A model generated the notes under the pieces. That model was not told where the DNA came from. It was given only the letters and a program-made list of their open reading frames with translations, and did not search any database. Position numbers and translations under genes: made by a program. 64,000 nt of DNA from Escherichia coli. GTDB taxonomy: Bacteria; Pseudomonadota; Gammaproteobacteria; Enterobacterales; Enterobacteriaceae. Shown here in pieces: positions 287 through 54,751 of this stretch (the first letter of the stretch is position 1; the number at the start of each line of letters is the position of its first letter). The DNA lies in the NCBI RefSeq assembly GCF_013122565.1, contig NZ_CP053258.1; one strand, 5' to 3'.

Positions 287-2184
<1,898 letters not shown>

Positions 2185-2185
<1 letters not shown>

Positions 2186-2820
2186 TGTATCAGCCTGATT
2201 TTCCTCCTGTACCTTTTCGTTTAGGACTGTACCCGGTGGTGGACAGCGTACAGTGGATCGAACGTCTGTTGGATGCAGGCGTACGTACTCTCCAGCTACG
2301 CATCAAAGATCGGCGCGATGAAGAGGTGGAAGCCGATGTCGTGGCGGCAATTGCGCTGGGCCGCCGCTATAACGCGCGATTGTTTATCAACGATTACTGG
2401 CGGCTGGCGATCAAGCATCAGGCGTATGGCGTCCATTTGGGGCAGGAAGATTTGCAAGCCACCGATCTCAATGCCATCCGCGCGGCAGGCCTGCGGCTGG
2501 GCGTTTCGACACATGACGATATGGAAATCGACGTCGCGCTGGCAGCACGCCCCTCTTATATCGCGCTGGGACATGTGTTCCCGACGCAAACCAAACAGAT
2601 GCCTTCTGCACCGCAGGGGCTGGAACAGCTGGCACGGCATGTTGAGCGACTGGCGGATTATCCCACCGTGGCGATTGGCGGTATCAGTCTGGCACGCGCG
2701 CCTGCGGTGATAGCAACGGGTGTCGGCAGTATCGCCGTCGTCAGCGCCATTACTCAAGCCGCAGACTGGCGTTTGGCAACGGCACAGTTGCTGGAAATTG
2801 CAGGAGTTGGCGATGAATGA
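2185..2820 (+). CDS. thiE: thiamine-phosphate synthase ThiE
   Basis: [23 protein letters not shown]...; ATG overlaps thiC stop (GTGATG); alternative GTG start at 2182. Confidence 0.93.
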
Positions 2821-3568
2821 CCGTGATTTTATGCGTTATAGCCGCCAAATCCTGCTCGACGATATCGCTCTTGACGGGCAGCAAAAACTGCTCGACAGCC
2901 AGGTGCTGATTATCGGTCTTGGCGGGCTGGGTACACCTGCTGCGCTGTACCTGGCGGGGGCTGGTGTCGGGACGCTGGTACTGGCAGATGACGACGATGT
3001 GCATTTAAGCAATCTGCAACGACAAATCCTCTTTACCACTGAAGATATCGATCGCCCGAAATCGCAAGTCAGCCAACAGCGACTGACACAGTTGAATCCC
3101 GATATTCAACTGACGGCACTACAACAACGGTTAACGGGTGAGGCGTTAAAAGATGCGGTTGCACAAGCCGATGTGGTGCTCGACTGTACCGACAATATGG
3201 CGACTCGCCAGGAGATTAATGCCGCCTGCGTGGCACTCAACACGCCGCTTATCACCGCCAGCGCGGTCGGATTTGGCGGTCAGTTGATGGTACTGACGCC
3301 ACCCTGGGAGCAGGGGTGTTACCGCTGCCTGTGGCCAGATAACCAGGAGCCAGAACGTAACTGCCGCACGGCGGGCGTGGTTGGCCCGGTGGTCGGGGTT
3401 ATGGGCACTTTACAGGCACTGGAAGCCATTAAGTTATTAAGCGGTATAGAGACGCCTGCGGGAGAATTCCGACTGTTCGACGGTAAGTCGAGCCAGTGGC
3501 GCAGCCTGGCGTTGCGCCGCGCTACAGGTTGCCCGGTATGCGGAGGAAGCAATGCAGATCCTGTTTAA
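2813..3568 (+). CDS. thiF: ThiS adenylyltransferase ThiF
   Basis: [15 protein letters not shown]... E1-like fold with GxGxxG; start chosen at internal ATG overlapping thiE stop (ORF track extends upstream in frame). Confidence 0.92.
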
Positions 3569-3752
3569 CGATCAACCGATGCAGTGCGCCGCCGGGCAAA
3601 CTGTTCACGAACTACTGGAGCAACTCGACCAACGACAAGCGGGCGCGGCTCTGGCGATTAATCAGCAAATCGTCCCGCGTGAGCAATGGGCGCAACATAT
3701 CGTGCAGGATGGCGACCAGATCCTGCTTTTTCAGGTTATTGCAGGGGGTTGA
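3552..3752 (+). CDS. thiS: sulfur carrier protein ThiS
   Basis: 66 aa ORF ending ...VIAGG (GG C-terminus). Confidence 0.95.
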
Positions 3753-3753
3753 G

Positions 3754-4524
3754 ATGTTACGTATTGCGGACATAACGTTTGATTCACATCTGTTTACCGG
3801 CACCGGGAAATTCGCCTCTTCACAACTGATGTTGGAGGCGATCCGCGCTTCCGGCAGCCAGCTGGTGACGCTGGCGATGAAACGTGTCGACTTGCGCCAG
3901 CACAACGACGCTATCCTCGAACCGCTTATCGCGGCGGGTGTGACCCTGCTGCCGAATACATCCGGGGCGAAAACAGCGGAAGAAGCCATTTTCGCCGCCC
4001 ATCTGGCTCGTGAAGCGTTAGGCACAAACTGGTTAAAATTAGAGATTCACCCTGACGCCCGCTGGCTGTTGCCCGATCCCATCGAAACTCTAAAAGCCGC
4101 CGAAATGCTGGTACAACAGGGATTTGTCGTGCTGCCTTACTGCGGGGCCGATCCGGTATTGTGTAAACGTCTGGAAGAAGTCGGCTGTGCAGCGGTGATG
4201 CCGCTCGGCGCGCCGATTGGCTCGAATCAGGGACTGGAAACCCGTGCCATGCTGGAGATTATTATCCAGCAGGCCACAGTTCCGGTGGTTGTCGATGCTG
4301 GCATCGGCGCTCCCAGCCATGCCGCGCAGGCGCTGGAAATGGGGGCCGACGCGGTGTTAGTGAATACGGCGATTGCCGTCGCGGACGATCCCGTCAACAT
4401 GGCGAAGGCATTTCGTCTGGCAGTAGAAGCAGGCCTGCTGGCACGTCAGTCCGGACCGGGCAGCCGCAGTCATTTTGCTCATGCCACCAGCCCGCTGACT
4501 GGATTTCTGGAGGCATCGGCATGA
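3754..4524 (+). CDS. thiG: thiazole synthase ThiG
   Basis: [20 protein letters not shown]...; start taken at ATG 3754 just after thiS stop, not at the upstream in-frame extension in the ORF track. Confidence 0.92.
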
Positions 4525-5654
4525 AAACCTTCAGCGATCGCTGGCGACAACTGGACTGGGACGACATCCGCCTGCGTATCAACGGCAAAATGGCTGCTGA
4601 CGTAGAACGGGCGCTAAATGCCTCGCAACTCACCCGCGACGATATGATGGCGCTGTTATCGCCAGCCGCCAGTGGCTATCTGGAACAACTGGCCCAACGG
4701 GCGCAGCGTCTGACACGTCAGCGATTTGGCAATGTTGTCAGTCTTTACGTCCCGCTTTATCTTTCCAATCTTTGCGCTAACGACTGCACGTACTGCGGAT
4801 TTTCCATGAGTAATCGCATCAAGCGCAAAACGCTGGATGAAGCGGATATTGCCAGGGAAAGCGCCGCTATACGGGAGATGGGCTTTGAACATCTGCTGTT
4901 AGTCACTGGTGAACATCAGGCGAAAGTGGGGATGGATTACTTTCGTCGTCATCTCCCTGCCCTTCGTGAACAGTTCTCTTCACTACAGATGGAAGTGCAA
5001 CCGCTGGCGGAGACGGAATACGCCGAGTTAAAGCAGCTTGGTCTGGATGGCGTGATGGTTTATCAGGAGACATATCACGAGGCGACTTATGCCCGCCATC
5101 ATCTGAAAGGCAAAAAACAGGACTTCTTCTGGCGGCTGGAAACGCCGGATCGGCTGGGGCGTGCGGGGATTGATAAGATAGGCCTCGGCGCGCTAATTGG
5201 CCTTTCCGACAACTGGCGCGTTGACTGCTATATGGTTGCCGAACATTTGCTATGGCTGCAACAGCATTACTGGCAAAGCCGTTACTCTGTCTCCTTTCCG
5301 CGCCTGCGCCCGTGTACTGGTGGCATTGAGCCTGCGTCGATTATGGATGAACGCCAGTTAGTGCAAACCATCTGCGCCTTCCGACTGCTTGCACCGGAGA
5401 TTGAACTGTCACTCTCCACGCGGGAATCACCGTGGTTTCGCGATCGCGTGATTCCACTGGCAATTAATAACGTCAGCGCTTTTTCGAAAACGCAGCCAGG
5501 TGGCTATGCCGACAATCACCCCGAGCTGGAACAGTTCTCACCGCACGACGATCGCAGACCGGAAGCGGTTGCTGCCGCGTTAACCGCTCAGGGTTTGCAG
5601 CCGGTATGGAAAGACTGGGACAGGTATCTGGGACGCGCCTCGCAAAGACTATGA
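4521..5654 (+). CDS. thiH: 2-iminoacetate synthase ThiH (radical SAM)
   Basis: 377 aa ORF with CANDCTYC radical-SAM motif; overlaps thiG stop. Confidence 0.95.
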
Positions 5655-6040: not shown

Positions 6041-6070
6041 AACCCACCTTAAGGTGGGTTTTGTTATTTT
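6041..6070 (+). terminator. Rho-independent terminator-like hairpin (aacccacc-ttaa-ggtgggtt + T-tract) at the 3' end of htrC
   Basis: Perfect 8-bp stem and T-rich tail on + strand; overlaps htrC stop codon. Confidence 0.5.
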
Positions 6071-6603
6071 GAGGGCTGAGGAAGCTGCTTATTTCTCAAT
6101 AAGTTGTAGGCAATGGTGAAAAATTTCACTGATTTACCTTTCTGTTTTTCAGAAATGGGATAAGCGCTAGTTACATGCAAACGGAGTTTTTTCTTTTCCC
6201 TGAAAGCCCTGAACGCAACAAAGTAAAATGCCTTATCTCCTCCGTCTAAGTCCACCTCAATCACGGCATAGCTACCATACCCGGCATGAATAACGTTGCT
6301 TTCTGGCAGCGCCAAAATAGTTCTTTTTAAGTGTGTGCGCGCTAAGTTATAACGGTGCTGGCAGAAGGGACGAGATTCTTTAGGCGCGTGGTACATTAAC
6401 GATTGTTTTTCTTCGTTCGTCTGATGTTCATAATCTTTTGTGAAGCAGTGAAGAGAGTAGGTAACCCAAAAGCGATACTCTAAAGGCTCTTTGCCCTCAT
6501 GATGCTGAACGTAGACAGCCTGATGAGCATCAAGAAATGATAAATCACGAATATCACCATCCGGATGTCCAAAAGGTCGCCACTTTTCCACTTCCTGTTT
6601 CAT
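6064..6603 (-). CDS. htrC: heat-shock protein HtrC (YjaZ)
   Basis: 179 aa ORF in the conserved position between thiH and rpoC. Confidence 0.85.
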   Translation of the reverse strand: MKQEVEKWRPFGHPDGDIRDLSFLDAHQAVYVQHHEGKEPLEYRFWVTYSLHCFTKDYEHQTNEEKQSLMYHAPKESRPFCQHRYNLARTHLKRTILALPESNVIHAGYGSYAVIEVDLDGGDKAFYFVAFRAFREKKKLRLHVTSAYPISEKQKGKSVKFFTIAYNLLRNKQLPQPSK

Positions 6604-15895: not shown

Positions 15896-16393
15896 TTAAG
15901 CAGCTTCTTTCGCATCGCGTACAGCAGCCAGAGTACGAACCAGTTTGCCAGCCGAAGCTTCTTTCATGGTTGCCATCAGGCGTGCAATTGCTTCTTCGTA
16001 GGTCGGCAGAGTTGCCAGGCGGTCGATCTGAGACGCCGGGATCAGCTCACCTTCAAAGGCAGCGGCTTTGACCTCAAATTTTGCATTCGCTTTCGCGAAC
16101 TCTTTGAACAGACGAGCAGCAGCGCCCGGGTGTTCCATAGAGTATGCAATCAGGGTCGGACCAACAAACGCGTCTTTCAGGCACTCGAACGGAGTACCTT
16201 CAACAGCACGGCGCAGCAGGGTGTTACGAACAACACGCATGTATACGCCAGCTTCGCGACCTGCTTTACGCAGTTCAGTCATTTTATCTACAGTTACGCC
16301 ACGGGAATCCGCAACTACTGCAGACAGCGCGCCTTTGGCTACTTCGCTGACTTCAGCAACAATCGCTTGTTTGTCTTGAAGATTTAAAGCCAT
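15896..16393 (-). CDS. rplJ: 50S ribosomal protein L10
   Basis: 165 aa [18 protein letters not shown]... Confidence 0.99.
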
Positions 16394-17979: not shown

Positions 17980-18525
17980 TTAGGCTTTTTCAACCTGGCT
18001 GAAGTCCAGCTCTACCGGGGTCGCACGACCGAAGATAGAAACAGACACTTTCAGACGAGATTTCTCGTAATCCACTTCTTCAACAACACCGTTGAAGTCA
18101 GCGAACGGACCATCATTAACACGGACCATTTCACCCGGTTCAAACAGCGTTTTCGGACGCGGCTTATCACCAACCTGCTGCAGGCGGTTCATAATCGCAT
18201 CGACTTCTTTATCGCTGATTGGCGCAGGACGATCGGAAGTACCGCCGATGAAGCCCATCACACGCGGTACGCTGCGCACCAGGTGCCAGCTCGCGTCGTT
18301 CATCACCATCTGAACGAGGACGTAGCCAGGGAAGAATTTACGTTCGCTTTTGCGACGCTGACCGCCACGGATTTCAACCACTTCTTCGGTTGGTACCATG
18401 ACTTCACCAAACAAATCTTCCATGTTGTGTAATTTGATATGCTCACGCAGCGACGTTGCTACGCGGCCTTCAAAACCGGAAAACGCCTGAACGACGTACC
18501 AGCGCTTTTTAGGAGCTTCAGACAT
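17980..18525 (-). CDS. nusG: transcription antitermination factor NusG
   Basis: 181 aa [25 protein letters not shown]... Confidence 0.98.
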
Positions 18526-18526
18526 C

Positions 18527-18910
18527 TCAGAACCTCAGGCCAGTGATAAAGGATACCAGGCGAACCAGAATACCATCCAGTCCCCACAGGATCAGTGACA
18601 TTACTGCGGTAACCGCAGCCACAATCAGCGTGGTGTGCAATGTTTCCTGGCGAGTCGGCCAAATGACCTTACGGACTTCGGTACGCGCTTCACGGGCAAA
18701 AGCAACGGTAGCTTTACCTTTTGTCGTTAACAGCGCGACACCACCCGCTGCAGCAATCAGAATTACTACGGCCAGCGCACGCAGCGGCAGCATAATGTCG
18801 CGATAAAGATAGTTGCCGACAATCGCCACCAGGAGCAATGCCACCACAACGACCCACTTCATCGCTTCCAGGCCGCGCCCGCTTCCTTGAGCTTCGGTAT
18901 TCGCACTCAT
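18527..18910 (-). CDS. secE: preprotein translocase subunit SecE
   Basis: 127 aa membrane ORF immediately upstream of nusG. Confidence 0.97.
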
Positions 18911-20711: not shown

Positions 20712-20796
<85 letters not shown>

Positions 20797-20804
20797 GGAC
20801 TTGA

Positions 20805-20880
<76 letters not shown>

Positions 20881-20894
20881 ATCAAGTAGCGCGC

Positions 20895-20945
20895 ATTCTA
20901 TGGAGACATGCGAGTTCATGCAACTAAAAAATTGCATAATTTGTT
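20895..20945 (-). promoter_or_regulatory. thrU-tyrU-glyT-thrT-tufB operon promoter
   Basis: On - strand TTGCAT, 17-nt spacer, TAGAAT, ending about 8 nt before the thrU 5' end; A/T-rich UP-like tract upstream. Confidence 0.7.
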
Positions 20946-21240
20946 TTGTTGGTCACATTTTATGCGACACGATGAAGAAACAGCCGAATGGAGGGCAGAT
21001 TAGCACACTTTTTCAACATGATGTGCTCAACAATGCGCTCCTGCTAAACCATAATTCTTTTTATCAGATGGAATATCTGTCACATTGCTTTTCAACGATA
21101 GCTTCCTGGGAGAGATTTTTTCTTATTATTCCTCCCCATCTGGTGTTACCCTCCTGCCCATTAACCCATTCAACAGAACTGTGACGCGCCATGGCAAATA
21201 TCGCTTTGCCGATAGAGCTATGACCGCCAGAAACATGCTT

Positions 21241-22191
21241 ATGAGTATAAAAGAGCAAACGTTAATGACGCCTTACCTACAGTTTGACCGCAACCAGTGG
21301 GCAGCTCTGCGTGATTCCGTACCTATGACGTTATCGGAAGATGAGATCGCCCGTCTCAAAGGTATTAATGAAGATCTCTCGTTAGAAGAAGTTGCCGAGA
21401 TCTATTTACCTTTGTCACGTTTGCTGAACTTCTATATAAGCTCAAATCTGCGCCGTCAGGCAGTTCTGGAGCAGTTTCTTGGTACCAATGGGCAACGCAT
21501 TCCTTACATTATCAGTATTGCTGGTAGTGTCGCGGTGGGGAAAAGTACAACCGCCCGTGTATTGCAGGCGCTATTAAGCCGTTGGCCGGAACATCGTCGT
21601 GTTGAACTGATCACTACAGATGGCTTCCTTCACCCTAATCAGGTTCTGAAAGAACGAGGTCTGATGAAGAAGAAAGGCTTCCCGGAATCGTATGATATGC
21701 ATCGCCTGGTCAAGTTTGTTTCCGATCTCAAGTCCGGCGTGCCAAACGTTACAGCCCCTGTTTACTCGCATCTTATTTATGATGTGATCCCGGATGGAGA
21801 TAAAACTGTTGTTCAGCCTGATATTTTAATTCTTGAAGGATTAAATGTCTTACAGAGCGGGATGGATTATCCACACGATCCACATCATGTATTTGTTTCT
21901 GATTTTGTCGATTTTTCGATATATGTTGATGCACCGGAAGACTTACTTCAGACGTGGTATATCAACCGTTTTCTGAAATTCCGCGAAGGGGCTTTTACAG
22001 ACCCGGATTCCTATTTTCATAACTACGCGAAATTAACTAAAGAAGAAGCTATTAAGACTGCCATGACATTGTGGAAAGAGATCAACTGGCTGAACTTAAA
22101 GCAAAATATTCTACCTACTCGCGAGCGCGCCAGTTTAATCCTGACGAAAAGTGCTAATCATGCGGTAGAAGAGGTCAGACTACGCAAATAA
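21241..22191 (+). CDS. coaA: pantothenate kinase
   Basis: 316 aa from [20 protein letters not shown]... with P-loop GSVAVGKST; ORF track extends 52 codons upstream. Confidence 0.95.
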
Positions 22192-22197
22192 TTTTCA

Positions 22198-22225
22198 GGG
22201 GAGCTAATGCTCCCCTTTCTTATTT
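22198..22225 (+). terminator. coaA terminator
   Basis: Hairpin aggggagc-taat-gctcccct followed by T-rich tract. Confidence 0.6.
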
Positions 22226-23185
22226 TTATGCACTACGCAGGGATATTTCACCGCCCATCCAGGGTTTTATTATTCCATCCTGCTCAAGCAATAAAGCGCC
22301 CTGTTTGTCTATTCCGCGTGAAATGCCAAATATTTCTTTATCACCAATGATAAGTTTCACTGGGCGATTAATAAAATTATCCAGCTTTTCCCAGCGCGAA
22401 AGATAAGGTGCCAATCCTTCTTGTTCGAAGAGTTCCAGCGCCGCGCGTAATTCACGTATTAGCATGGCCGCCAACGTATTACGATCGAGATTGATCCCCG
22501 CTTCCTGCAGCGTGATCCACCCCTGATTAACGACACTCTCTTCAACACGACGCATTGCCATGTTGATACCGGCTCCAATGACTATTTGCGCCGCATCGCC
22601 GGTTTTACCAGTCAGCTCCACAAGAATGCCTGCCAGCTTGCGATCCTGCAGATAGAGGTCATTAGGCCATTTAACACGAACTTTATCTGCACCCAGCTTG
22701 CGTAATACTTCCGCCATCACGATACCGATAACCAGACTTAAACCAATCGCCGCCGCCGGGCCTTGTTCCAGACGCCAGAACATCGACAAATATAAGTTTG
22801 CGCCAAAAGGCGAAAACCATTTCCGACCCCGGCGACCACGGCCAGCCTGCTGGTATTCTGCAACGCAGGCATCGCCCGATTTAAGCTCTCCGATACGATC
22901 AAGAAAGTACTGATTCGTGGAGTCAATCACTGGCAGCACGGCTACACTACCGCCATCCAGCTGACCCAATATCTGTTTAGCATTAAGTAACTGGATAGGC
23001 TCAGGCAGGCTGTATCCTTTACCCGGAACGGTAAAGACATCAACGCCCCAGTCACGCAGTGTCTGAATGTGTTTATTAATAGCCGCCCGACTCATTCCTA
23101 ACGTTTCACCCAACTGCTCACCTGAGTGAAATTCGCCATTCGCTAACAGCGCGATTAATTTCAGCGGAACGGTATTATCCTTCAT
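22226..23185 (-). CDS. birA: biotin-[acetyl-CoA-carboxylase] ligase / bio operon repressor BirA
   Basis: 319 aa [50 protein letters not shown]... (HTH plus ligase). Confidence 0.97.
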
Positions 23186-24210
23186 GAAATCGTCTCCACT
23201 GCGCTAACTTCACCTGATGCACCAATAAAGCGAACTTCAGGCTCAAGCCAGACATTAAATTTTTCACCCACTTTTTGTCTTACATGGTGCGCCAGTTGCA
23301 CCACATCTTCGCTTTTTGCATTGTCTTCATTAATGAGAACTAACGCCTGTTGACGGTGCACCGCTGCACCACCCATTTGCATCCCTTTTAGCTGGCACTG
23401 ATCGATAAGCCAACCTGCTGCCAGTTTTACTGAACCATCCACCTGGGGGTAATTTGGTGCTGTTGGAAATTGTGCCAGTAATGCTTTAGCCGTTTCGGCA
23501 GACACAACAGGGTTTTTGAAGAAACTACCGGCATTGCCATTCACTTTTGGGTCAGGAAGTTTGGTGGTGCGCATATGACACACCGCATCAAATACTTGCT
23601 GTGGCGTTATTGTTGCAGGATCCAGACGAGTTAAGTCACCATACGTTAGTACAGGTTGCCACTCTTTTGGCAGACGCAGACCTACGGCTACAATGGCGAA
23701 GCGATCCTGGTATTCATGTTTAAAAATACTGTCGCGATAGCCAAAACGGCACTCTTTGGCAGTTAAGCGCACTTGCTTGCCTGTCACCAGTTCAACACAA
23801 TCAACATAAGCGCAAACTCGCTGTAATTCTACGCCATAAGCACCAATATTCTGGATAGGTGATGAGCCGACACAACCAGGAATTAATGCCAGATTTTCCA
23901 GACCTGGCATACCTTCCTGCAAAGTGTATTTTACCAGGCGATGCCAGTTTTCCCCTGCCCCCACATGTAAATACCACGCATCAGGTTCATCATGAATTTC
24001 GATACCTTTGATCCGGTTGATGATCACCGTGCCGCGATAGTCTTCCAGAAAAAGTACATTACTTCCTTCACCCAGAATAAGAGCGGGTTGTCCTTTTGCG
24101 GTTGCATGCTGCCAGGCATTGAGTAGTTGTTGTTCGTCTTCGGCACATACAATGTGCTGAGCATTATGATCAATGCCAAATGTGTTCCAGGGTTTTAAGG
24201 AGTGGTTCAT
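23182..24210 (-). CDS. murB: UDP-N-acetylenolpyruvoylglucosamine reductase MurB
   Basis: 342 aa ORF; 4-bp overlap with birA start. Confidence 0.97.
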
Positions 24211-24302
24211 AGCTGCTTTCCTGATGCAAAAACGAGGCTAGTTTACCGTATCTGCGGGGGGATGGCTTGTAGATATGATGACAGGAAAAGTTTGTAGAAA
24301 CG

Positions 24303-24330
24303 CAAAAAGGCCCAGTCTTCCGACTGAGCC
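24303..24330 (-). terminator. rRNA operon terminator
   Basis: On - strand GGCUCAGUC-GGAA-GACUGGGCC hairpin followed by UUUUUGCG, 15 nt after the 5S 3' end. Confidence 0.75.
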
Positions 24331-24344
24331 TTCTGCTTAATTTG

Positions 24345-24464
24345 ATGCCTGGCAGTTCCCTACTCTCGCATGGGGAGACCCCACACTACCATCGGCGCTA
24401 CGGCGTTTCACTTCTGAGTTCGGCATGGGGTCAGGTGGGACCACCGCGCTACGGCCGCCAGGCA
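24345..24464 (-). rRNA. rrfB: 5S ribosomal RNA
   Basis: 120-nt reverse complement TGCCTGGCGGCCGTAGCGCGGTGGTCCCACCTGACCCCATGCCGAACTCAG...GGGAACTGCCAGGCAT. Confidence 0.97.
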
Positions 24465-34891: not shown

Positions 34892-35216
34892 CACGATGTC
34901 TGAATCCTTGCCAAAAGTACTGCTGGCACTATACCAGAGAATGAACATACTGGATTGCTCCAGTGTTGTGAATGAACGGTAACGCAATAAAACATATTTA
35001 CTGCAATTCTTTGGCCGGTTCTTTTACGTACATGCCGCTTAAACGGAGAGTATCGTCGATAAAAATCCAATAAAACGTTCATGTCAAAAGTAAGAAACAG
35101 ACAAAGCAAAGGCCGCTCACGATATAGCCAGATAAATGACGGGGATCAATTGGCTTACCCGCGATAAAATGTTACCATTCTGTTGCTTTTATGTATAAGA
35201 ACAGGTAAGCCCTACC

Positions 35217-37721: not shown

Positions 37722-37730
37722 TTTTTTTTT
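37702..37730 (+). terminator. oxyS intrinsic terminator
   Basis: Stem gcggatc-tccag-gatccgc followed by T10. Confidence 0.9.
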
Positions 37731-37770
37731 TATTCTACAGGCCCACAACAAGAGAGCCTGATAGTAACGG

Positions 37771-39054
37771 TTACTCAATGCGATCTTTGACAATAAAGAA
37801 GTAACACAACGCCCCGGTGAACGTCACACAGGCCGCGATAACCAACGCCAGATTAAACGAGTGTGTGGTATCCACTACCCAACCGGTTACGATCGGAGCA
37901 AAGGAAGCAAAAACAAAACTGCCAAAGTTTTGAATCCCGGCGATGGAAGCCACTTTTGTTTCTGACACCATCACCTGCACCAGTCCCCATGCAGACGTTC
38001 CCGCGAAATGCACGCAGAATAGCGCCATTGAGATAAACGCTACCGCCTGAGCTGGCGAGGAAGATTGCACGACCAGCAACGTGCCTAATGCCGACATCAT
38101 CAAACCGCAGACAATAGCCGTTTTACGCGTCTTCGCCAGGTCGTAGCCTTTTTTCGCCAGTCGATCGACAACAATACCGTTTACCCACATCCCGACTGCC
38201 GCCGCGAGGAAAGGAATCGCCGCCACCCAACCGGTTTTCGCCAGACTGAAACCTTGCTCGGCCTGCAAATAACCGGGTAACCACGCGATGTAGAGCCAAC
38301 CGGTATAATTGACGCCAGAGAAACCTAAAATCATCCCCCAGGTTGTCCGATGCTTAAACAGCGCCAGCCACTCGCTAAATTGCAGCTGTGGACGCGGTTT
38401 AACCGGCGCGGAGAGATACGTCCGTTCTTCGTCAGTCAGGACAAACTGCGCCCGGTTGCGATACCACGCGTACCAACAGATCCCAACCAGAATCCCCGCC
38501 ACGCCGATGATGACGAACATCGTCCGCCAGCCCCATGCCAGCTGCATCAATACAAGAGCAGGAGGCGCGATAGCCTGACCGATAACGGTAGATGAGTTAA
38601 AAATCCCCAGCGCCGTGCCGCGTTCTTTTTGTGCATACCAGTCGGTGATCGACTTTACTCCCGCAGGCATAAATGGCGCTTCGCCAATACCCAGACCGAT
38701 ACGCATTAAAATAAAGTGGCTAAAAGAATTAACCATTCCTGTTAATGCCTGCATTAATGACCAGAATATTAAGCCTGCGCCTAAAACTATTCGTGGGCCA
38801 AAGCGGTCTAGCAAAATACCGGAAGGAAGTTGTGAAAAACCATAAGACAGAGAAAATGCAGAAAGCAAAAAACCAAACTCTGTCGCTGATAATCCTAACT
38901 CGCCACGAATCGCTTCGCCTGCCACGCTCAATGACGAACGGTCGAGAAAATTAACGATCCCCGCCATAAATAATAAAACCAGGGTCACTGTCTGAATACG
39001 ACGAATCCGTTGCGGTTTATTACCCGCAACACTGGTTGACACATCAACGTCCAT
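37771..39054 (-). CDS. MFS transporter, anion:cation symporter (ACS) family, putative sugar-acid (hexonate/hexuronate) permease
   Basis: 427 aa ORF, about 12 predicted TM segments, ACS-like N-terminus (LVLLFMAGIVNFLDRSSLSVAG, LDRFGPR); AAGGAG RBS 7 nt upstream of ATG; not present at this locus in K-12. Confidence 0.85.
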   Translation of the reverse strand: MDVDVSTSVAGNKPQRIRRIQTVTLVLLFMAGIVNFLDRSSLSVAGEAIRGELGLSATEFGFLLSAFSLSYGFSQLPSGILLDRFGPRIVLGAGLIFWSLMQALTGMVNSFSHFILMRIGLGIGEAPFMPAGVKSITDWYAQKERGTALGIFNSSTVIGQAIAPPALVLMQLAWGWRTMFVIIGVAGILVGICWYAWYRNRAQFVLTDEERTYLSAPVKPRPQLQFSEWLALFKHRTTWGMILGFSGVNYTGWLYIAWLPGYLQAEQGFSLAKTGWVAAIPFLAAAVGMWVNGIVVDRLAKKGYDLAKTRKTAIVCGLMMSALGTLLVVQSSSPAQAVAFISMALFCVHFAGTSAWGLVQVMVSETKVASIAGIQNFGSFVFASFAPIVTGWVVDTTHSFNLALVIAACVTFTGALCYFFIVKDRIE

Positions 39055-39120
39055 TTTTAGCTCCTTGAGCGGAATTAATCGATTTGATGACTATTCAGAA
39101 AATAATTAAGCGAACCGTTA

Positions 39121-40335
39121 TTACCAGTTCCACAATGTGCCATCTTCCAGTCGTGCGACGGGGAGATACGCCGGGTCATACGGATATTTCGCCGCCAGTT
39201 TCTCATCGAAAGAAATACCCAGCCCCGGTTCATCGCCTGGGTGCATATAACCTTCATCGAAGCGCCAGCTGTGCGGGAAGACTTCAAGCATTTGTTCGGA
39301 ATAGCCCATGTACTCCTGAACGCCAAAGTTTGGCACCCAGAGGTCAAAATGCAGCGCCGCCGCATGACAAACAGGCGATAAATCTGAAGGGCCATGCGAA
39401 CCGGTACGTACCTGATAAAGCGATGCAAAATCGGCAATCCGTCGCATCCCGGTAATGCCGCCTGCATGGGTAATCGTCGTGCGAATATAGTCAATCAGCT
39501 GCTCTTCGATTAACTGCTTGCAGTCCCAGATACTGTTAAACACTTCACCGACCGCAATCGGCGTCACGGTGTGCTGGCGAATCAGACGGAAACATTCCTG
39601 GTTCTCGGCAGGCGTAGGATCTTCCATCCAGAACAGGCGGTAATCCTCAATGCTCTTCCCAAAGCGCGCCGCTTCGATGGGGGTCAGGCGATGGTGCATG
39701 TCATGCAACAGATGTTCGTTAAAACCGAACTTATTACGCACCGCTTCAAATAACTTCGGCGTAAAATCGAGATACTTTTCTGAAGACCACAACTGCTCTT
39801 CTGGCCACAGGCCTTTGGTTGCCGGTTCATACGCCAGTCCTTTGCCCTTCGCCAGGCCATAAGTGGTTTGCATACCCGGTACACCACACTGCACACGAAT
39901 CGCCTTAAAGCCCATGTGCTGGTGCTTTGCATAGTCTTCAAGGACTTCATCAATCGTACGCCCGGTGGTGTGGCAATAAACCATCACGCCTTCACGAGAA
40001 GCACCACCAAGCAGTTGATACAATGGCATATTTGCCGCTTTAGCTTTGATATCCCACAACGCCATATCAATGGCAGAAATGGCTGACATCGTGACGGGGC
40101 CACGTCGCCAGTAAGCACCTTTATAAAAGAATTGCCAGATATCTTCGATACGGCTGGCATCGCGGCCAATTAGTTGTGGACAAAGATGATCTTTCAGATA
40201 AGAAGCGACCGACAATTCGCGACCATTTAACGTGGCATCTCCTAATCCACAAAGTCCGCTTTCAGTGGTTATTTTAAGCGTAACGAAATTACGCCCTGGG
40301 CAAGTAACAAAAACATCCGCAGCAATAATTTTCAT
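39121..40335 (-). CDS. enolase-superfamily dehydratase, ManD/RspA-like (putative D-mannonate or related acid-sugar dehydratase)
   Basis: 405 aa from [25 protein letters not shown]... ending ...[22 protein letters not shown]; closely resembles remembered RspA; AGGAG RBS; ORF track extends 20 codons upstream. Confidence 0.85.
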
Positions 40336-40744
40336 TATTGCAATCTCCTGTGTTGTAAATAGACGTTTCAAACTTAATTTTACGCCTACTACCATACAAG
40401 AGAGAAAAAGCGATTATTCAACCGTGATCACATTAAAAACAAAAATTTCCATCGAGGAGAAAAAATACCCTCAAAAACCACCTGAATAATTAACCATTAT
40501 CGTTAAAACAACACGTTAAATAATCACATAACAAACTCCATTAATCATTAAAAATGGGCACAGCAATAGAAAATAATTATATTCAATTAATTAAAACATG
40601 CATTGGTTGATGTATTGAAAATATGATTTTTATGGGGGGGAGTGAAGGTAAAGAAGACACAATAATAAAAAGGAATATGACAAATAATGGTTCTGGTTGG
40701 ACGTTAAATTTAAGGTCACCAGAATGATGACAAATTTCTGCCTG

Positions 40745-40795
40745 ATGCGGCGTAAACGCCTTATCCGCCTACGAAGTGTCGCACTTTGTAGGCGT
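40745..40795. repeat. REP (repetitive extragenic palindrome) element downstream of argH
   Basis: gcctgatgcggcgtaaacgccttatccgcctac... typical REP consensus. Confidence 0.7.
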
Positions 40796-40800
40796 GGTAA

Positions 40801-40821
40801 ACTCCCCATTTTCAGGGGAGC
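40801..40821 (-). terminator. argH terminator-like hairpin
   Basis: ctcccc-attttca-ggggag inverted repeat immediately after argH stop; weak U-tract. Confidence 0.5.
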
Positions 40822-40833
40822 AATATAAACAAA

Positions 40834-51609: not shown

Positions 51610-52488
51610 TTAACCTCCCACGGTAACCTGAAATCCGGCCCGTTCTGCCATTTCGCGCATCGTTGCCACATCAGCTGACGACGGCGCAGGCACCTCTTTC
51701 ATCGACCATGTTTTCCCCAGCAGGCGGTATTTCGGTTCGCCGTACTGATGAAACGGTAACAGATGGATCTGCCTGATATTCAGCGGGATCAGCACGTCCA
51801 GCGCCTGCTGCATATTCTCCCGGCTGAGCGTGAAACCAGGGATCAGCGGTAAACGCGGGATCACGTTGACACCCTCACTCACCAGCAAACGCAGATTCTC
51901 CACCACGCGTGGCAGGTTCATCTTCACCACATCCCGCGCCTGAGTCGCATCCATGATTTTTAAATCGAACAACACTTCATCGCACAATTTCGCCAGTGGT
52001 AACAGCTTGCTTGCTGGCGCGTCTCCGGCAGTTTCAATGGCGCATGACACCCCCCACAGCCGCAGTCGCTGTAAAAAACGGGTAGCAAACTCCGCCTGCA
52101 TTAACACTTCGCCGCCAGAAAGCGTGACGCCGCCGCCGGACGTGCGAAAGAAAATGTCATCTTTCATCACTTCCCGTTCCAGCGCGTCAAGGCTGATATC
52201 GCGACCAATCCGTTCAAACGCCCCGGAGGGGCATTCATCCGCATCACGCAAACATTTCGCACAGTGCAGACATTTCGCCTCTCTGCGTACCGTCTGGATT
52301 TTGCCGGAGATCGACTCCGGATTAGCACACCACGGGCAAAGATGCGGACAGCCTTTAAAAAAGACCACCGTACGAATGCCCTCACCGTCATTCAGTGAAT
52401 AACGCTGAATGTTGAAAATGCGCGCCACATCATTGCGGCGCGTTTCCACAACGTTACAGCTGATGCGCTGTCCGGCGGATGATGTCAT
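51610..52488 (-). CDS. pflC: glycyl-radical enzyme activating protein PflC
   Basis: 292 aa from MTSSAGQRIS... with radical-SAM CPHLCPWC and ferredoxin-like Cys clusters. Confidence 0.93.
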   Translation of the reverse strand: MTSSAGQRISCNVVETRRNDVARIFNIQRYSLNDGEGIRTVVFFKGCPHLCPWCANPESISGKIQTVRREAKCLHCAKCLRDADECPSGAFERIGRDISLDALEREVMKDDIFFRTSGGGVTLSGGEVLMQAEFATRFLQRLRLWGVSCAIETAGDAPASKLLPLAKLCDEVLFDLKIMDATQARDVVKMNLPRVVENLRLLVSEGVNVIPRLPLIPGFTLSRENMQQALDVLIPLNIRQIHLLPFHQYGEPKYRLLGKTWSMKEVPAPSSADVATMREMAERAGFQVTVGG

Positions 52489-54751
52489 CCTGGATCTCCT
52501 TCGACAGTTCGACAAAGAAGGCGCTGTATCCGGCAACGCGCACCACCAGCCCGGCATAATCTTGTGGGCGCTGTTGCGCTTCCCGCAACGTGTCGGCGTT
52601 CACCACGTTAAACTGAATATGTTGTAACTTAAGCTGGGTAAACGCCCGTAAGAAGTCGGCCAGTTTGCGTAATCCCGCTTCACCTTCCAGGGTCGCCGGA
52701 GTGAATTTCACGTTCAGCAACGTACCGTTAGACAGCAGTGTGTTATCGAGCTTACTGACTGACTTCAGTACCGCCGTTGGCCCTTGTGCGTCCTGGCCCA
52801 GCATGGGTGACAAGCCGCCGTCTGCCAGTTGTTCCCCGGCAAAACGACCGTCTGGCGTCGCACCAACCACCGATCCCAACGGGACGTGAGCAGAAACGGT
52901 ATACGATCCCGGCGTGAAGTAGCCGCCGCGCGGGTTCTGGTATTTTTCCACTTCTTTGCAGTAGTGGCGTAACAGTTCGGCGCTGATGTTATCCACCTCG
53001 TCGATATCGTTACCGTATTTCTCAAAGCGGTTAATTAAGCGAGCGCGGACTTTTTCGCCTTCTGGCGTTGCGAAGTTGGCTTTTAATACCGACAGCAATT
53101 CGTCAAAACTTAAACGCTGTTGATCAAAAACCATCCCTTTCAACGCATGGAGAGAATCGCTCAGGTTGGCGATACCGATCCCCTGTACGCCGGAGAAGTT
53201 ATAACGCGCGCCGCCATCGGTAATATCGCGGCCTTTTTCCAGACAATCGCTGATAAACGATGAGAGCAGCGGTACAGGTGCCCAGTCGCGATGGCCGATA
53301 TCACAAATATTGCTGCCCTCAACCATCAGGGTGATGTAGTGGCTGATCTTGGCGCGGATCTGCTCCAGTAAACCTTCATAAGTCAGCGCAGCATTGCCTT
53401 CATTTTCATGCAGGCAGATTTCCATCACTTTCAGCAGATTAAACATCGCGATGTCATGCAAGCCGTAGGTTCTGCCGGGAATAGATAATTCCACACAGCC
53501 CACTACGGAATAGTCGCGCGCATCTTCCAGCGAAACGCCACGGTTGAGGAACGCTGGCACCACCACTTCATCGTTAAAGATTTGCGGAATACCGGTGCCG
53601 AGGCGAATGGTTTCGGCGGTTTTCATCAGGAACGGCGTGTCGATCAAGGCGTTAGTGCGCACGCCGAGGTTCGGTTGCGGTAATTGCACGCTTTGATAAG
53701 CATCGAGGCAAAGGAATGAAAGCACGTTCACCGCGCTACGTCCGTTCTCGGTTAACCCGCCGAGCAGTGCGGTATAGCCGGTCGGGAAACCTGCGAAATA
53801 ACGCGCGCTGCTGGTGGAGCGCAACAGCACGATGTCGTTGCATTTCACCCATAAAGATTCGAGCAGTTCTTTCAGGAACGCCGGATCTTCGCCCTGGGTT
53901 AAAGATGCCTGATAGAACGGCAACATATACTGGTCGAAGCGCCCTAAAGACAGCGAACTGGCGTTGGATTCGTATTGCAGAATGATGTTCATGTACCAGA
54001 ATAACTGGCACGCCTGCCAGAACGTCTGCGGCTTATGTTGCGCGTTATGGCGGGAGATCTCCGCAATAGTCAGCAGCTCTTAGCGACGCTGGGCATCTGT
54101 GCAGTTTGCCGCCATCGTTTCCGCCAGTTCGGCGTAACGCAAAATGTGTTTCTGCGAGGCTTCCAGCAGTAACAGCGCTGCCTGATAAAAGTAATTCTCC
54201 GGCTGTTGCTGACAATGTTGCTGCATCTGCGCCACCAGCTCCCCCAGCCCGTGATTCAGCAGGCGCGGGTAATCAATAATAATGTGCCCCTGGCCTTTAT
54301 CCGTCTGGTTGATGCTGAAAATCTGCGTGCTGGTCGCGGCTTTTACTTCATCCGTCATCTGCCCGTTGATGAAATCTTTCATCGAACGTTTTTCCCAGTA
54401 CGGGAACAACTCTTCGCGGTAGATACGTTTATCTTCTTCGCTGATAGCAAAGCGGTCCTGCGGACGCGTCGGGAACTGGTCCAACTCTTTCAGCAGCCAG
54501 TAAGGATCCATTTCCGGCGACATAATCCCGGCGCGTGGTTTCACCGTGCGGTTACCGGCAATCAGTTCTTCATCACGAATCGAAATTTCAACATGTTCAA
54601 GGATATACGCTGTTGCTTTCGCCCGGCGCAATATCACCGGTTCGCCTTCGGTTTGCCGATGGCTGGCGGTATAAAGCAGCGCACGCTCCAGCGAGATTTC
54701 ACGGGTATTGGCAAACAGTGCAGTTTTGAGGCGAGAGATACGATTCGTCAT
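52454..54751 (-). pseudogene. pflD: pflD (glycyl-radical formate-acetyltransferase 2), interrupted by an in-frame TAA at codon 224
   Basis: Two collinear same-frame ORFs (54080-54751 and 52454-53992) separated only by a TAA at 54080-54082; full frame otherwise intact at 765 codons. Confidence 0.8.

What the first reader, a model, noticed from the sequence alone, without database searches (positions are those of the whole stretch)
22226..22234. birA stops two codons earlier than the K-12 form I recall
Here BirA ends ...GGEISLRSA followed by TAA AAA TAA. I recall K-12 BirA ending ...SLRSAEK (GCA GAA AAA TAA), which would make this a GAA-to-TAA change removing the last two residues. It is probably functionally neutral, but it is the same G-to-T, Glu-to-stop pattern seen in pflD, which makes a strain-specific mutational signature or a systematic sequencing artefact worth excluding.
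Basis: partly seen in the sequence, partly recalled or inferred. Interest (0 to 1): 0.15.

Follow-up and report, generated by a model that had tools for sequence, protein, structure and literature searches.

The report
BirA two residues short: harmless SNP
In this strain a single G-to-T change turns the second-to-last codon of the essential biotin ligase gene birA into a stop, so the protein loses its last two amino acids; the change is real and found in this strain only, it is almost certainly harmless, and nothing points to a mutational signature or a sequencing artefact.

Summary
birA (minus strand, 22226-23185) encodes 319 aa ending ...SLRSA, followed by TAA AAA TAA. K-12 and seven other E. 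coli genomes read GCA GAA AAA TAA (321 aa, ...SAEK). The difference is one base, window 22228, making E320*.

The allele is private. None of 5,411 complete E. coli genomes matches the surrounding 69-mer exactly, and the exact protein is on record from one NCBI chromosome and one SRA run. A separate assembly of that run is 100% identical across birA, so this is not an assembler error.

The loss looks neutral:
- Pfam's BPL_C domain ends at residue 317.
- Citrobacter and another enterobacterial BirA end at ...RSAE (320 aa), as does one E. coli variant.
- Distant solved homologues end 1-2 residues after the equivalent of residue 317/318.
- birA is essential and the strain was cultured.

pflD does carry a second private GAA-to-TAA (E224*). 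These are the only 2 shortened genes among 43. The lineage's private substitutions are 10% G:C>T:A, the same as in other lineages (p=0.58), and mostly synonymous (127 to 32).

Verdict: an ordinary strain-specific polymorphism in a well-known gene. Interest is very low.

The parts
22226..23185 (-). birA coding sequence as it now reads: 319 codons plus the new TAA stop. It encodes the bifunctional biotin-[acetyl-CoA-carboxylase] ligase and bio operon repressor.
   Evidence: ORF list. Pfam HTH_11, BPL_LplA_LipB and BPL_C all match above their cut-offs. 1e-209 to E. coli BirA structure 1bia. 97.1% nucleotide identity to K-12 birA with no gaps.
22226..22228 (-). New stop codon TAA at codon 320, ancestrally GAA (Glu320). 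The mutated base is 22228: A on the + strand where the ancestor has C.
   Evidence: Private against 8 comparator genomes. No exact match to the surrounding 69-mer in 5,411 complete E. coli genomes.
22220..22225 (-). Remnant of the old reading frame: AAA (formerly Lys321) and the ancestral stop TAA. It now sits in the 3' UTR as an in-frame back-up stop two codons downstream.
22197..22228 (.). Terminator-like element shared by the convergent genes coaA and birA. The hairpin AGGGGAGC-TAAT-GCTCCCCT spans 22197-22216. The T-rich tail TTCTTATTTTTA spans 22217-22228 and overlaps the end of birA. The SNP is the last base of that tail, 12 nt past the stem.
   Evidence: Consensus scan found one terminator-like site on the + strand; function was not tested.
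21241..22191 (+). coaA (pantothenate kinase), convergent with birA, 316 aa, intact. The 368-aa TTG ORF starting at 21085 is only an upstream extension produced by mechanical ORF calling.
   Evidence: Alignment to K-12 coaA, 98.4% identity, same length; ORF list.
23182..24210 (-). murB, lying upstream of birA and overlapping its start by 4 bases. It is intact at 342 aa but carries six lineage-private amino-acid changes.
54080..54082 (-). The second private GAA>TAA: pflD codon 224 (E224*). It splits the 765-codon pflD (52454-54751) into a 223-aa ORF and a 512-aa ORF.
   Evidence: No exact 69-mer match in 4,426 E. coli genomes that carry the region. The same truncated product is called in SRR11451224.

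Best explanation
This is a genuine single-nucleotide substitution, G>T on the birA coding strand at window 22228, fixed in a rare E. coli-type lineage. It converts Glu320 (GAA) to TAA, so BirA ends at Ala319 instead of Lys321. The two lost residues lie beyond the last conserved position of the C-terminal domain, and the rest of the protein is intact: the HTH, the GRGRRGR loop, Lys183 and the whole BPL_C domain. BirA therefore most likely still biotinylates AccB and represses the bio operon normally. The change behaves as a nearly neutral polymorphism. The old AAA TAA remains as an in-frame back-up stop. On the other strand the SNP is the last base of the coaA terminator's T-rich tail, where an effect is not expected. 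The second private GAA>TAA, in the non-essential gene pflD, is an independent event of one of the commoner routes to a stop codon. It is not evidence of a special mutational process. Shown here: the sequence change, its privacy, its reproduction in a second assembly, intact domains, natural length variation at this terminus, and a normal substitution spectrum. Inferred: retained function and neutrality.
For: The sequence change is documented.

Privacy:
- 0 of 5,411 complete E. coli genomes match the 69-mer exactly; the best have 1 mismatch.
- The exact 319-aa protein is QJU26017.1/WP_171460008.1, UniRef100 n=1, on one 4,821,968-bp chromosome plus Logan run SRR11451224.
- No match among 100,044 species-representative genomes.

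Not an assembly error: Logan contig L004 is 100% identical to window 20767-24362, and L013 is 100% identical across pflD.

Real evolution rather than noise:
- Window-private changes are 127 synonymous to 32 nonsynonymous.
- There are no frameshifts in 43 genes.

The tail is dispensable:
- BPL_C matches residues 271-317, covering profile positions 1-48 of 48.
- Citrobacter freundii BirA and a second ~92%-identical enterobacterial BirA are 320 aa ending ...RSAE. An E. coli-type variant, P0014, also ends ...RSAE.
- The A. aeolicus (233 aa), P. horikoshii (235 aa) and 9j8e (302 aa) ligases end 1-2 residues after the position aligned to E. coli 317/318.
- From established knowledge, birA is essential in E. 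coli, and this strain was cultured and sequenced.

No signature:
- The C>A class is 18/175 (10.3%) in the window lineage against 134/1470 (9.1%) in eight others, p=0.58.
- Among nonsynonymous changes it is 6/32 against 42/251, p=0.80.
Against: No functional assay exists for BirA(1-319). The C-terminal domain as a whole matters: deleting 43 C-terminal residues inactivated the E. coli-derived miniTurbo (PMC9293651), and the domain is thought to contribute to BCCP binding (PMC5640590). A small effect of shortening its last strand or tail on stability or substrate binding therefore cannot be excluded. Glu320 is retained in every other enterobacterial sequence I looked at, so the 319-aa form has no natural precedent in my sample. 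Two of two nonsense changes being GAA>TAA has probability of only about 0.007 (lineage spectrum) to 0.025 (uniform rates) if that exact pair is specified in advance. The SRA run is probably the read set behind the assembly itself, so it does not rule out a library-level artefact.
Confidence: 0.85

Rival explanations
1. The T is a sequencing or consensus artefact, for example oxidative G>T damage during library preparation or a polishing error. On this reading the real genome has GAA, in birA and in pflD alike.
For: Both private stops are the same G>T change on the same strand of the window. G>T is a known class of library artefact (my own knowledge). Both alleles are unique among thousands of genomes.
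Against: An independent assembly (Logan) of SRA run SRR11451224 gives contigs 100% identical to the window over 3,596 and 3,672 bases, including both stops. Damage artefacts occur at low read fraction and should not win a haploid consensus (my own knowledge). The private differences in the window are 80% synonymous among coding changes, and no gene is frameshifted; random errors would not look like that. The C>A class is not enriched.
Confidence: 0.04
2. The two GAA>TAA changes are real but reflect a recent strain-specific burst of G:C>T:A mutagenesis, such as a mutY/mutM-type 8-oxoG repair defect or oxidative stress.
For: Two of two private nonsense mutations are G>T. P(both in the C>A class) is 0.035 and P(both GAA>TAA) is 0.007 under the lineage's own spectrum. 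Four further private nonsynonymous changes belong to this class: thiG V27L, rplL A110S, frwD G34V and ptsA L167M.
Against: The C>A share of all private substitutions (10.3%) and of the nonsynonymous ones (6/32) is indistinguishable from eight other lineages (p=0.58 and 0.80). GAA>TAA is the fifth commonest route to a stop under the lineage spectrum (8.6%), and accounts for 15.7% of routes under uniform rates. The chance that two nonsense hits share any one codon change is 0.15. n=2, and the pattern was noticed after the fact. Strain ES5 also has a pseudogenised btuB and yjaZ in the same region, so occasional private knock-outs are normal.
Confidence: 0.06
3. The truncation has a functional consequence. 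It could alter BirA stability, BCCP recognition or dimerisation-dependent repression, or change coaA/birA transcription termination, and so may be adaptive or mildly deleterious.
For: The C-terminal domain is required in E. coli-type BirA and is thought to help bind BCCP. Glu320 is present in all other enterobacterial sequences seen. BirA also carries a second private change, L94F. The SNP lies within the T-rich tail of the coaA terminator.
Against: Only two residues are lost, and they lie outside the Pfam domain. Homologues with solved structures end at the equivalent position. Lys321 is naturally absent in other genera and in one E. coli variant. The SNP is 12 nt beyond the terminator stem, past where termination normally occurs (sequence, plus general knowledge of intrinsic terminators). 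The gene is essential and the strain is viable.
Confidence: 0.05

Closest known systems
E. coli K-12 BirA (P06709; PDB 1bia/1hxd/2ewn), a group II biotin protein ligase and bio repressor
   Same: Same gene in the same murB-birA-coaA context. 319 of 319 residues align with no gaps at about 99% identity. All three domains are present, as are the GRGRRGR loop and Lys183.
   Different: It lacks Glu320 and Lys321 because of GAA>TAA. It also has L94F, plus I108V, which is shared with other non-K-12 strains.
320-aa BirA of Citrobacter freundii and a related enterobacterial BirA (probably Salmonella, from my recollection of that sequence), and the E. coli-type variant P0014
   Same: These are naturally shorter C-termini at the same place (...SLRSAE), which shows that the extreme tail varies in length among functional BirA proteins.
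   Different: They lose one residue (Lys321) and keep Glu320. The window's protein loses both.
Group I biotin protein ligases with solved structures (A. aeolicus 2eay/3efs, P. horikoshii 1wnl)
   Same: The catalytic and C-terminal domains align up to E. coli residue 317/318, and these proteins stop 1-2 residues later, roughly where the truncated protein stops.
   Different: They have no N-terminal HTH domain and share only low sequence identity. They bear only on fold boundaries.

Membership tests
BirA, group II biotin protein ligase / bio operon repressor | N-terminal winged helix-turn-helix DNA-binding domain | tested here: met
   Pfam HTH_11, E=3.4e-13, 49.7 bits against a cut-off of 25, residues 9-58.
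BirA, group II biotin protein ligase / bio operon repressor | Central BPL/LplA/LipB catalytic domain with the GRGRRGR biotin-binding loop and catalytic Lys183 | tested here: met
   Pfam BPL_LplA_LipB, E=1.2e-31, residues 84-208. G115-R121 and K183 are invariant in the alignment with K-12, O157 and O25b.
BirA, group II biotin protein ligase / bio operon repressor | Complete C-terminal BPL_C domain | tested here: met
   Pfam BPL_C, E=2.4e-13, residues 271-317 covering profile positions 1-48 of 48. The truncation at 319 lies outside the model.
BirA, group II biotin protein ligase / bio operon repressor | Orthologous position between murB and coaA | tested here: met
   The order murB-birA-(convergent) coaA is the same as in K-12 and all comparators.
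BirA, group II biotin protein ligase / bio operon repressor | Biotinylation of AccB and biotinyl-AMP-dependent repression of bioO | not testable with these tools
   This needs complementation, reporter or enzymatic assays. Function is inferred only from the gene's essentiality and the strain's viability.
Intrinsic (Rho-independent) terminator shared by convergent genes | GC-rich hairpin followed by a T-run | tested here: met
   An 8-bp stem with 6 GC pairs and a 4-nt loop at 22197-22216, followed by TTCTTATTTT. This is a consensus match only; 0.7 such sites are expected by chance in 600 bp.
8-oxoG-repair (mutY/mutM) mutator signature | Excess of G:C>T:A among lineage-specific substitutions | tested here: not met
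   18/175 against 134/1470 in eight other lineages, p=0.58. Among nonsynonymous changes, 6/32 against 42/251, p=0.80. The test covers 56 kb only and is dominated by old substitutions.

The most novel reading that the evidence does not exclude
The two private GAA>TAA stops, together with a few private G>T missense changes including rplL A110S, could be the visible tip of a recent episode of G:C>T:A-biased mutagenesis in this rarely sampled lineage, for example a transient or current 8-oxoG repair defect. Such an episode would be masked in my spectrum test by the much larger number of old substitutions.
Probability: 0.05. Interest if true: 0.2.

Novelty: already known. Interest (0 to 1): 0.03.

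Why it matters
It matters very little. BirA is among the best-characterised bacterial proteins, and this allele is already deposited and annotated as an ordinary BirA (WP_171460008.1). It has three minor uses. First, it suggests that Glu320 and Lys321 are dispensable in vivo, which bears slightly on the design of C-terminal BirA/BioID fusions. Second, it serves as a strain marker for a rarely sampled E. coli-type lineage. Third, it is a worked example showing that two nonsense SNPs of the same type are not enough to infer a mutational signature.

Tried and rejected
1. Naming the source organism did not succeed.
- The exact BirA and MurB proteins are found only in one NCBI chromosome (4,821,968 bp) and one Logan run.
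- None of 5,426 RefSeq complete E. coli genomes is the source. The best matches are 99.3% over 15-35 kb, 98.1-98.3% over 41-64 kb and 98.2% over murB-birA.
- A scan of 100,044 species-representative genomes for the 34-mer carrying the TAA allele found nothing.
- A full-text paper search for the run and protein accessions found nothing.

I considered Shigella, or an assembly since removed from RefSeq, but could not test either. A cryptic Escherichia clade is unlikely: B2 strain O25b is the outgroup on the shared columns, and the window is as far from K-12 as K-12 is from O157.

2. I looked for close relatives to date the mutation by searching for contigs encoding the lineage-specific MurB. Only the same sample came back, so the age of the SNP within the lineage is unknown.

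3. I did not run structure prediction or the large protein-database searches. Pfam domain boundaries, cluster members and alignments to solved homologues already answered the question about the tail.

5. I rejected the idea that the 368-aa TTG ORF is a longer coaA. It is a mechanical upstream extension.

Full report
**What is there.** birA lies on the minus strand at 22226-23185. It reads ...GGT GAA ATA TCC CTG CGT AGT GCA TAA AAA TAA and gives a 319-aa protein ending GGEISLRSA. K-12 MG1655 birA is 966 nt, or 321 codons plus a stop. The K-12 derivative TC9/EC600, O157:H7 PV15-279 and O25b:H4 all read GCA GAA AAA TAA and end ...SLRSAEK. Codon by codon, the only difference at the terminus is GAA>TAA at codon 320. 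The base is window 22228, A on the + strand where the ancestor has C. The former Lys321 codon (22223-22225) and the ancestral stop (22220-22222) are untouched and now act as an in-frame back-up stop.

**How common it is.** A 69-base query centred on the codon matched 5,411 of 5,426 complete RefSeq E. coli genomes, none of them exactly. The best hits had one mismatch, and in the ones I aligned that mismatch is the G/T. The exact 319-aa sequence is in the public protein collection as QJU26017.1/WP_171460008.1 (UniRef100 n=1). It comes from one chromosome of 4,821,968 bp and is also found in the Logan assembly of SRA run SRR11451224. It is annotated there as an ordinary BirA. No species-representative genome among 100,044 carries the allele. 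The variant is therefore private to one strain, or to one very thinly sampled lineage.

**Whether it is real.**
- The Logan contig carrying birA (3,596 bp) is 100% identical to window 20767-24362. It breaks at the tRNA cluster and the rRNA operon, as a short-read assembly would.
- A second contig from the same run is 100% identical across pflD.
- The window shows no sign of error-prone consensus. None of 43 complete K-12 orthologues has an indel.
- Against eight comparator genomes, the lineage's private coding changes are 127 synonymous and 32 nonsynonymous. That is the signature of purifying selection, not of random error.

An assembler or polishing artefact is therefore very unlikely. A library-level artefact is not formally excluded, because the SRA run is probably the read set behind the deposited assembly.

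**What the lineage is.** On 59,563 shared columns the window is 98.55% identical to K-12, 98.7% to ES5, 98.6% to O157 and 97.7% to O25b. K-12 against O157 is 98.5% on the same columns. This is an ordinary phylogroup-level distance inside E. coli, with B2 as the outgroup. Even so, no complete E. coli genome is close: 98.1-98.3% over 41-64 kb and 98.2% over murB-birA. The exact MurB protein, with six private substitutions, is again found only in SRR11451224. I could not name the organism. Without close relatives the age of the SNP cannot be estimated.

**Likely consequence.** All three BirA domains score well above Pfam cut-offs. The C-terminal BPL_C model is matched in full (profile 1-48 of 48) by residues 271-317, so the loss of residues 320-321 lies outside it. 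The GRGRRGR loop and Lys183 are intact.

The extreme terminus varies naturally:
- Citrobacter freundii BirA and a second ~92%-identical enterobacterial BirA are 320 aa ending ...SLRSAE. One E. coli-type variant (P0014) has also lost Lys321.
- In alignments to solved structures, the A. aeolicus (233 aa), P. horikoshii (235 aa) and 9j8e (302 aa) ligases end one or two residues after the position equivalent to E. coli 317/318. That is about where this protein now ends.

The literature shows that the C-terminal domain as a whole is needed. Deleting 43 residues inactivated E. coli-derived miniTurbo (PMC9293651), and the domain is thought to contribute to BCCP binding (PMC5640590). That concerns the folded domain, not its last two residues. 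birA is essential in E. coli (established knowledge) and the strain was grown and sequenced. My best reading is a functionally near-neutral truncation. This is an inference, not a measurement.

On the other strand, the SNP is the final base of the T-rich tail (TTCTTATTTTT[C>A]) that follows the coaA terminator hairpin at 22197-22216. At 12 nt beyond the stem, no effect on termination is expected.

**The 'same pattern as pflD' question.** pflD codon 224 is indeed TAA where all comparators have GAA. That allele is also absent from the 4,426 E. coli genomes that match the region. These are the only two shortened genes among the 43 complete orthologues in the window.

I tested for a G:C>T:A bias by polarising window-private substitutions.
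- With four comparators: 25 of 238 are in the C>A class, against 7-12% in the other lineages (p=0.32).
- With eight comparators: 18 of 175 (10.3%) against 134 of 1,470 (9.1%), p=0.58. Among nonsynonymous changes, 6 of 32 against 42 of 251, p=0.80.

Using the lineage's own spectrum on the 48.7 kb of coding sequence:
- 3.8% of random coding substitutions would be nonsense.
- GAA>TAA is the fifth commonest route to a stop (8.6% of routes; 15.7% with uniform rates).
- The chance that two nonsense hits share some codon change is 0.15.
- The chance that both are specifically GAA>TAA is 0.007-0.025.

With n=2 and a pattern noticed after the fact, this is a mild coincidence and not evidence of a signature. 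Roughly 6-8 nonsense changes would be expected among the lineage's 159-212 private coding substitutions (eight- or four-comparator set) if selection did not act. Only two survive, one at the dispensable tip of an essential gene and one in a non-essential gene. That is what purifying selection predicts. Comparator ES5 also has a pseudogenised btuB and yjaZ in the same region, so sporadic private knock-outs are normal.

The caveat is that my private set is dominated by old substitutions. A very recent mutator episode would be diluted, and I give it about 5%.

**Comparison with what is known, and verdict.** This is E. coli BirA, a textbook group II biotin protein ligase and repressor, in its canonical murB-birA-coaA context. 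It meets every sequence-level family criterion I could test. The allele is already deposited and annotated. The two things it wanted excluded, a signature and an artefact, are excluded as far as a 64-kb window and one independent assembly allow. Novelty: already known. Interest: about 0.03.

Noticed in passing
window 52454-54751 (- strand); stop at 54080-54082: pflD (putative formate acetyltransferase 2) carries a private E224* (GAA>TAA) that splits it into 223-aa and 512-aa ORFs. pflC and the frw genes around it are intact. The allele is absent from 4,426 E. coli genomes that match the region and is reproduced in SRA run SRR11451224.
   Followed up: yes
window ~37730-40833: A 3.1-kb accessory island between oxyR/oxyS and argH encodes an MFS transporter (37771-39054, -) and a D-mannonate dehydratase ManD-type enolase-superfamily protein (39121-40395, -). 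It is absent from K-12, ES5, O157 and O25b, and is present at full length in 1,860 of 5,426 complete E. coli genomes.
   Followed up: partly
window 34949-35216 (sthA-fabR intergenic): The window lacks the two-gene M20 aminoacylase / citrate-proton symporter island found here in ES5, O157, O25b, PapM-32-1, TB06052 and 2018-05-2CC. In this respect it resembles K-12 and strain A5. Strain A5 has the same gene content as the window across all 64 kb (63,979 of 64,000 bases aligned).
   Followed up: partly
whole window: The source lineage is unusually poorly sampled. It sits at phylogroup-level distance (about 98.5%) from every comparator, and no genome among 5,426 complete E. coli is closer than 98.1-99.3%, depending on the segment. 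Its exact MurB and BirA proteins occur in only one chromosome and one SRA run. The organism name could not be recovered.
   Followed up: partly
window 15502 (rplL codon 110): There is a private A110S (GCC>TCC, G>T) in ribosomal protein L7/L12. That protein is the identical WP_000028878.1 in all seven RefSeq comparators whose protein accession was listed. It is a rare amino-acid change in a highly conserved protein.
   Followed up: no
window 22906 (birA codon 94); 23441-24096 (murB); 304-5624 (thiC-thiH): Private nonsynonymous changes cluster: BirA L94F, six in MurB, eleven across thiC, thiF, thiG and thiH, and three in ptsA. Private-substitution density peaks at 1.4% per kb in murB and in ptsA, against about 0.1-0.3% elsewhere. 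This suggests divergent alleles, possibly brought in by recombination from an unsampled lineage.
   Followed up: partly
window 6064-6603 (yjaZ), 17980-18910 (nusG, secE), 15896-16393 (rplJ): These genes are 100% identical to K-12 at the nucleotide level, while the neighbouring thi genes are 97-98% identical. yjaZ is intact here but is pseudogenised, truncated or absent in ES5, PapM-32-1, TB06052, O157 and O25b. This points to mosaic ancestry along the window.
   Followed up: no
window 22197-22216: The coaA/birA terminator hairpin differs from K-12 at two loop-proximal positions: GGGGAGC-ATTA-GCTCCCC here and in O157/O25b, against GGGGAGT-ATTC-GCTCCCC in K-12. This gives a 7-bp perfect stem here, where K-12 has a T-G wobble at the top of its stem.
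   Followed up: no
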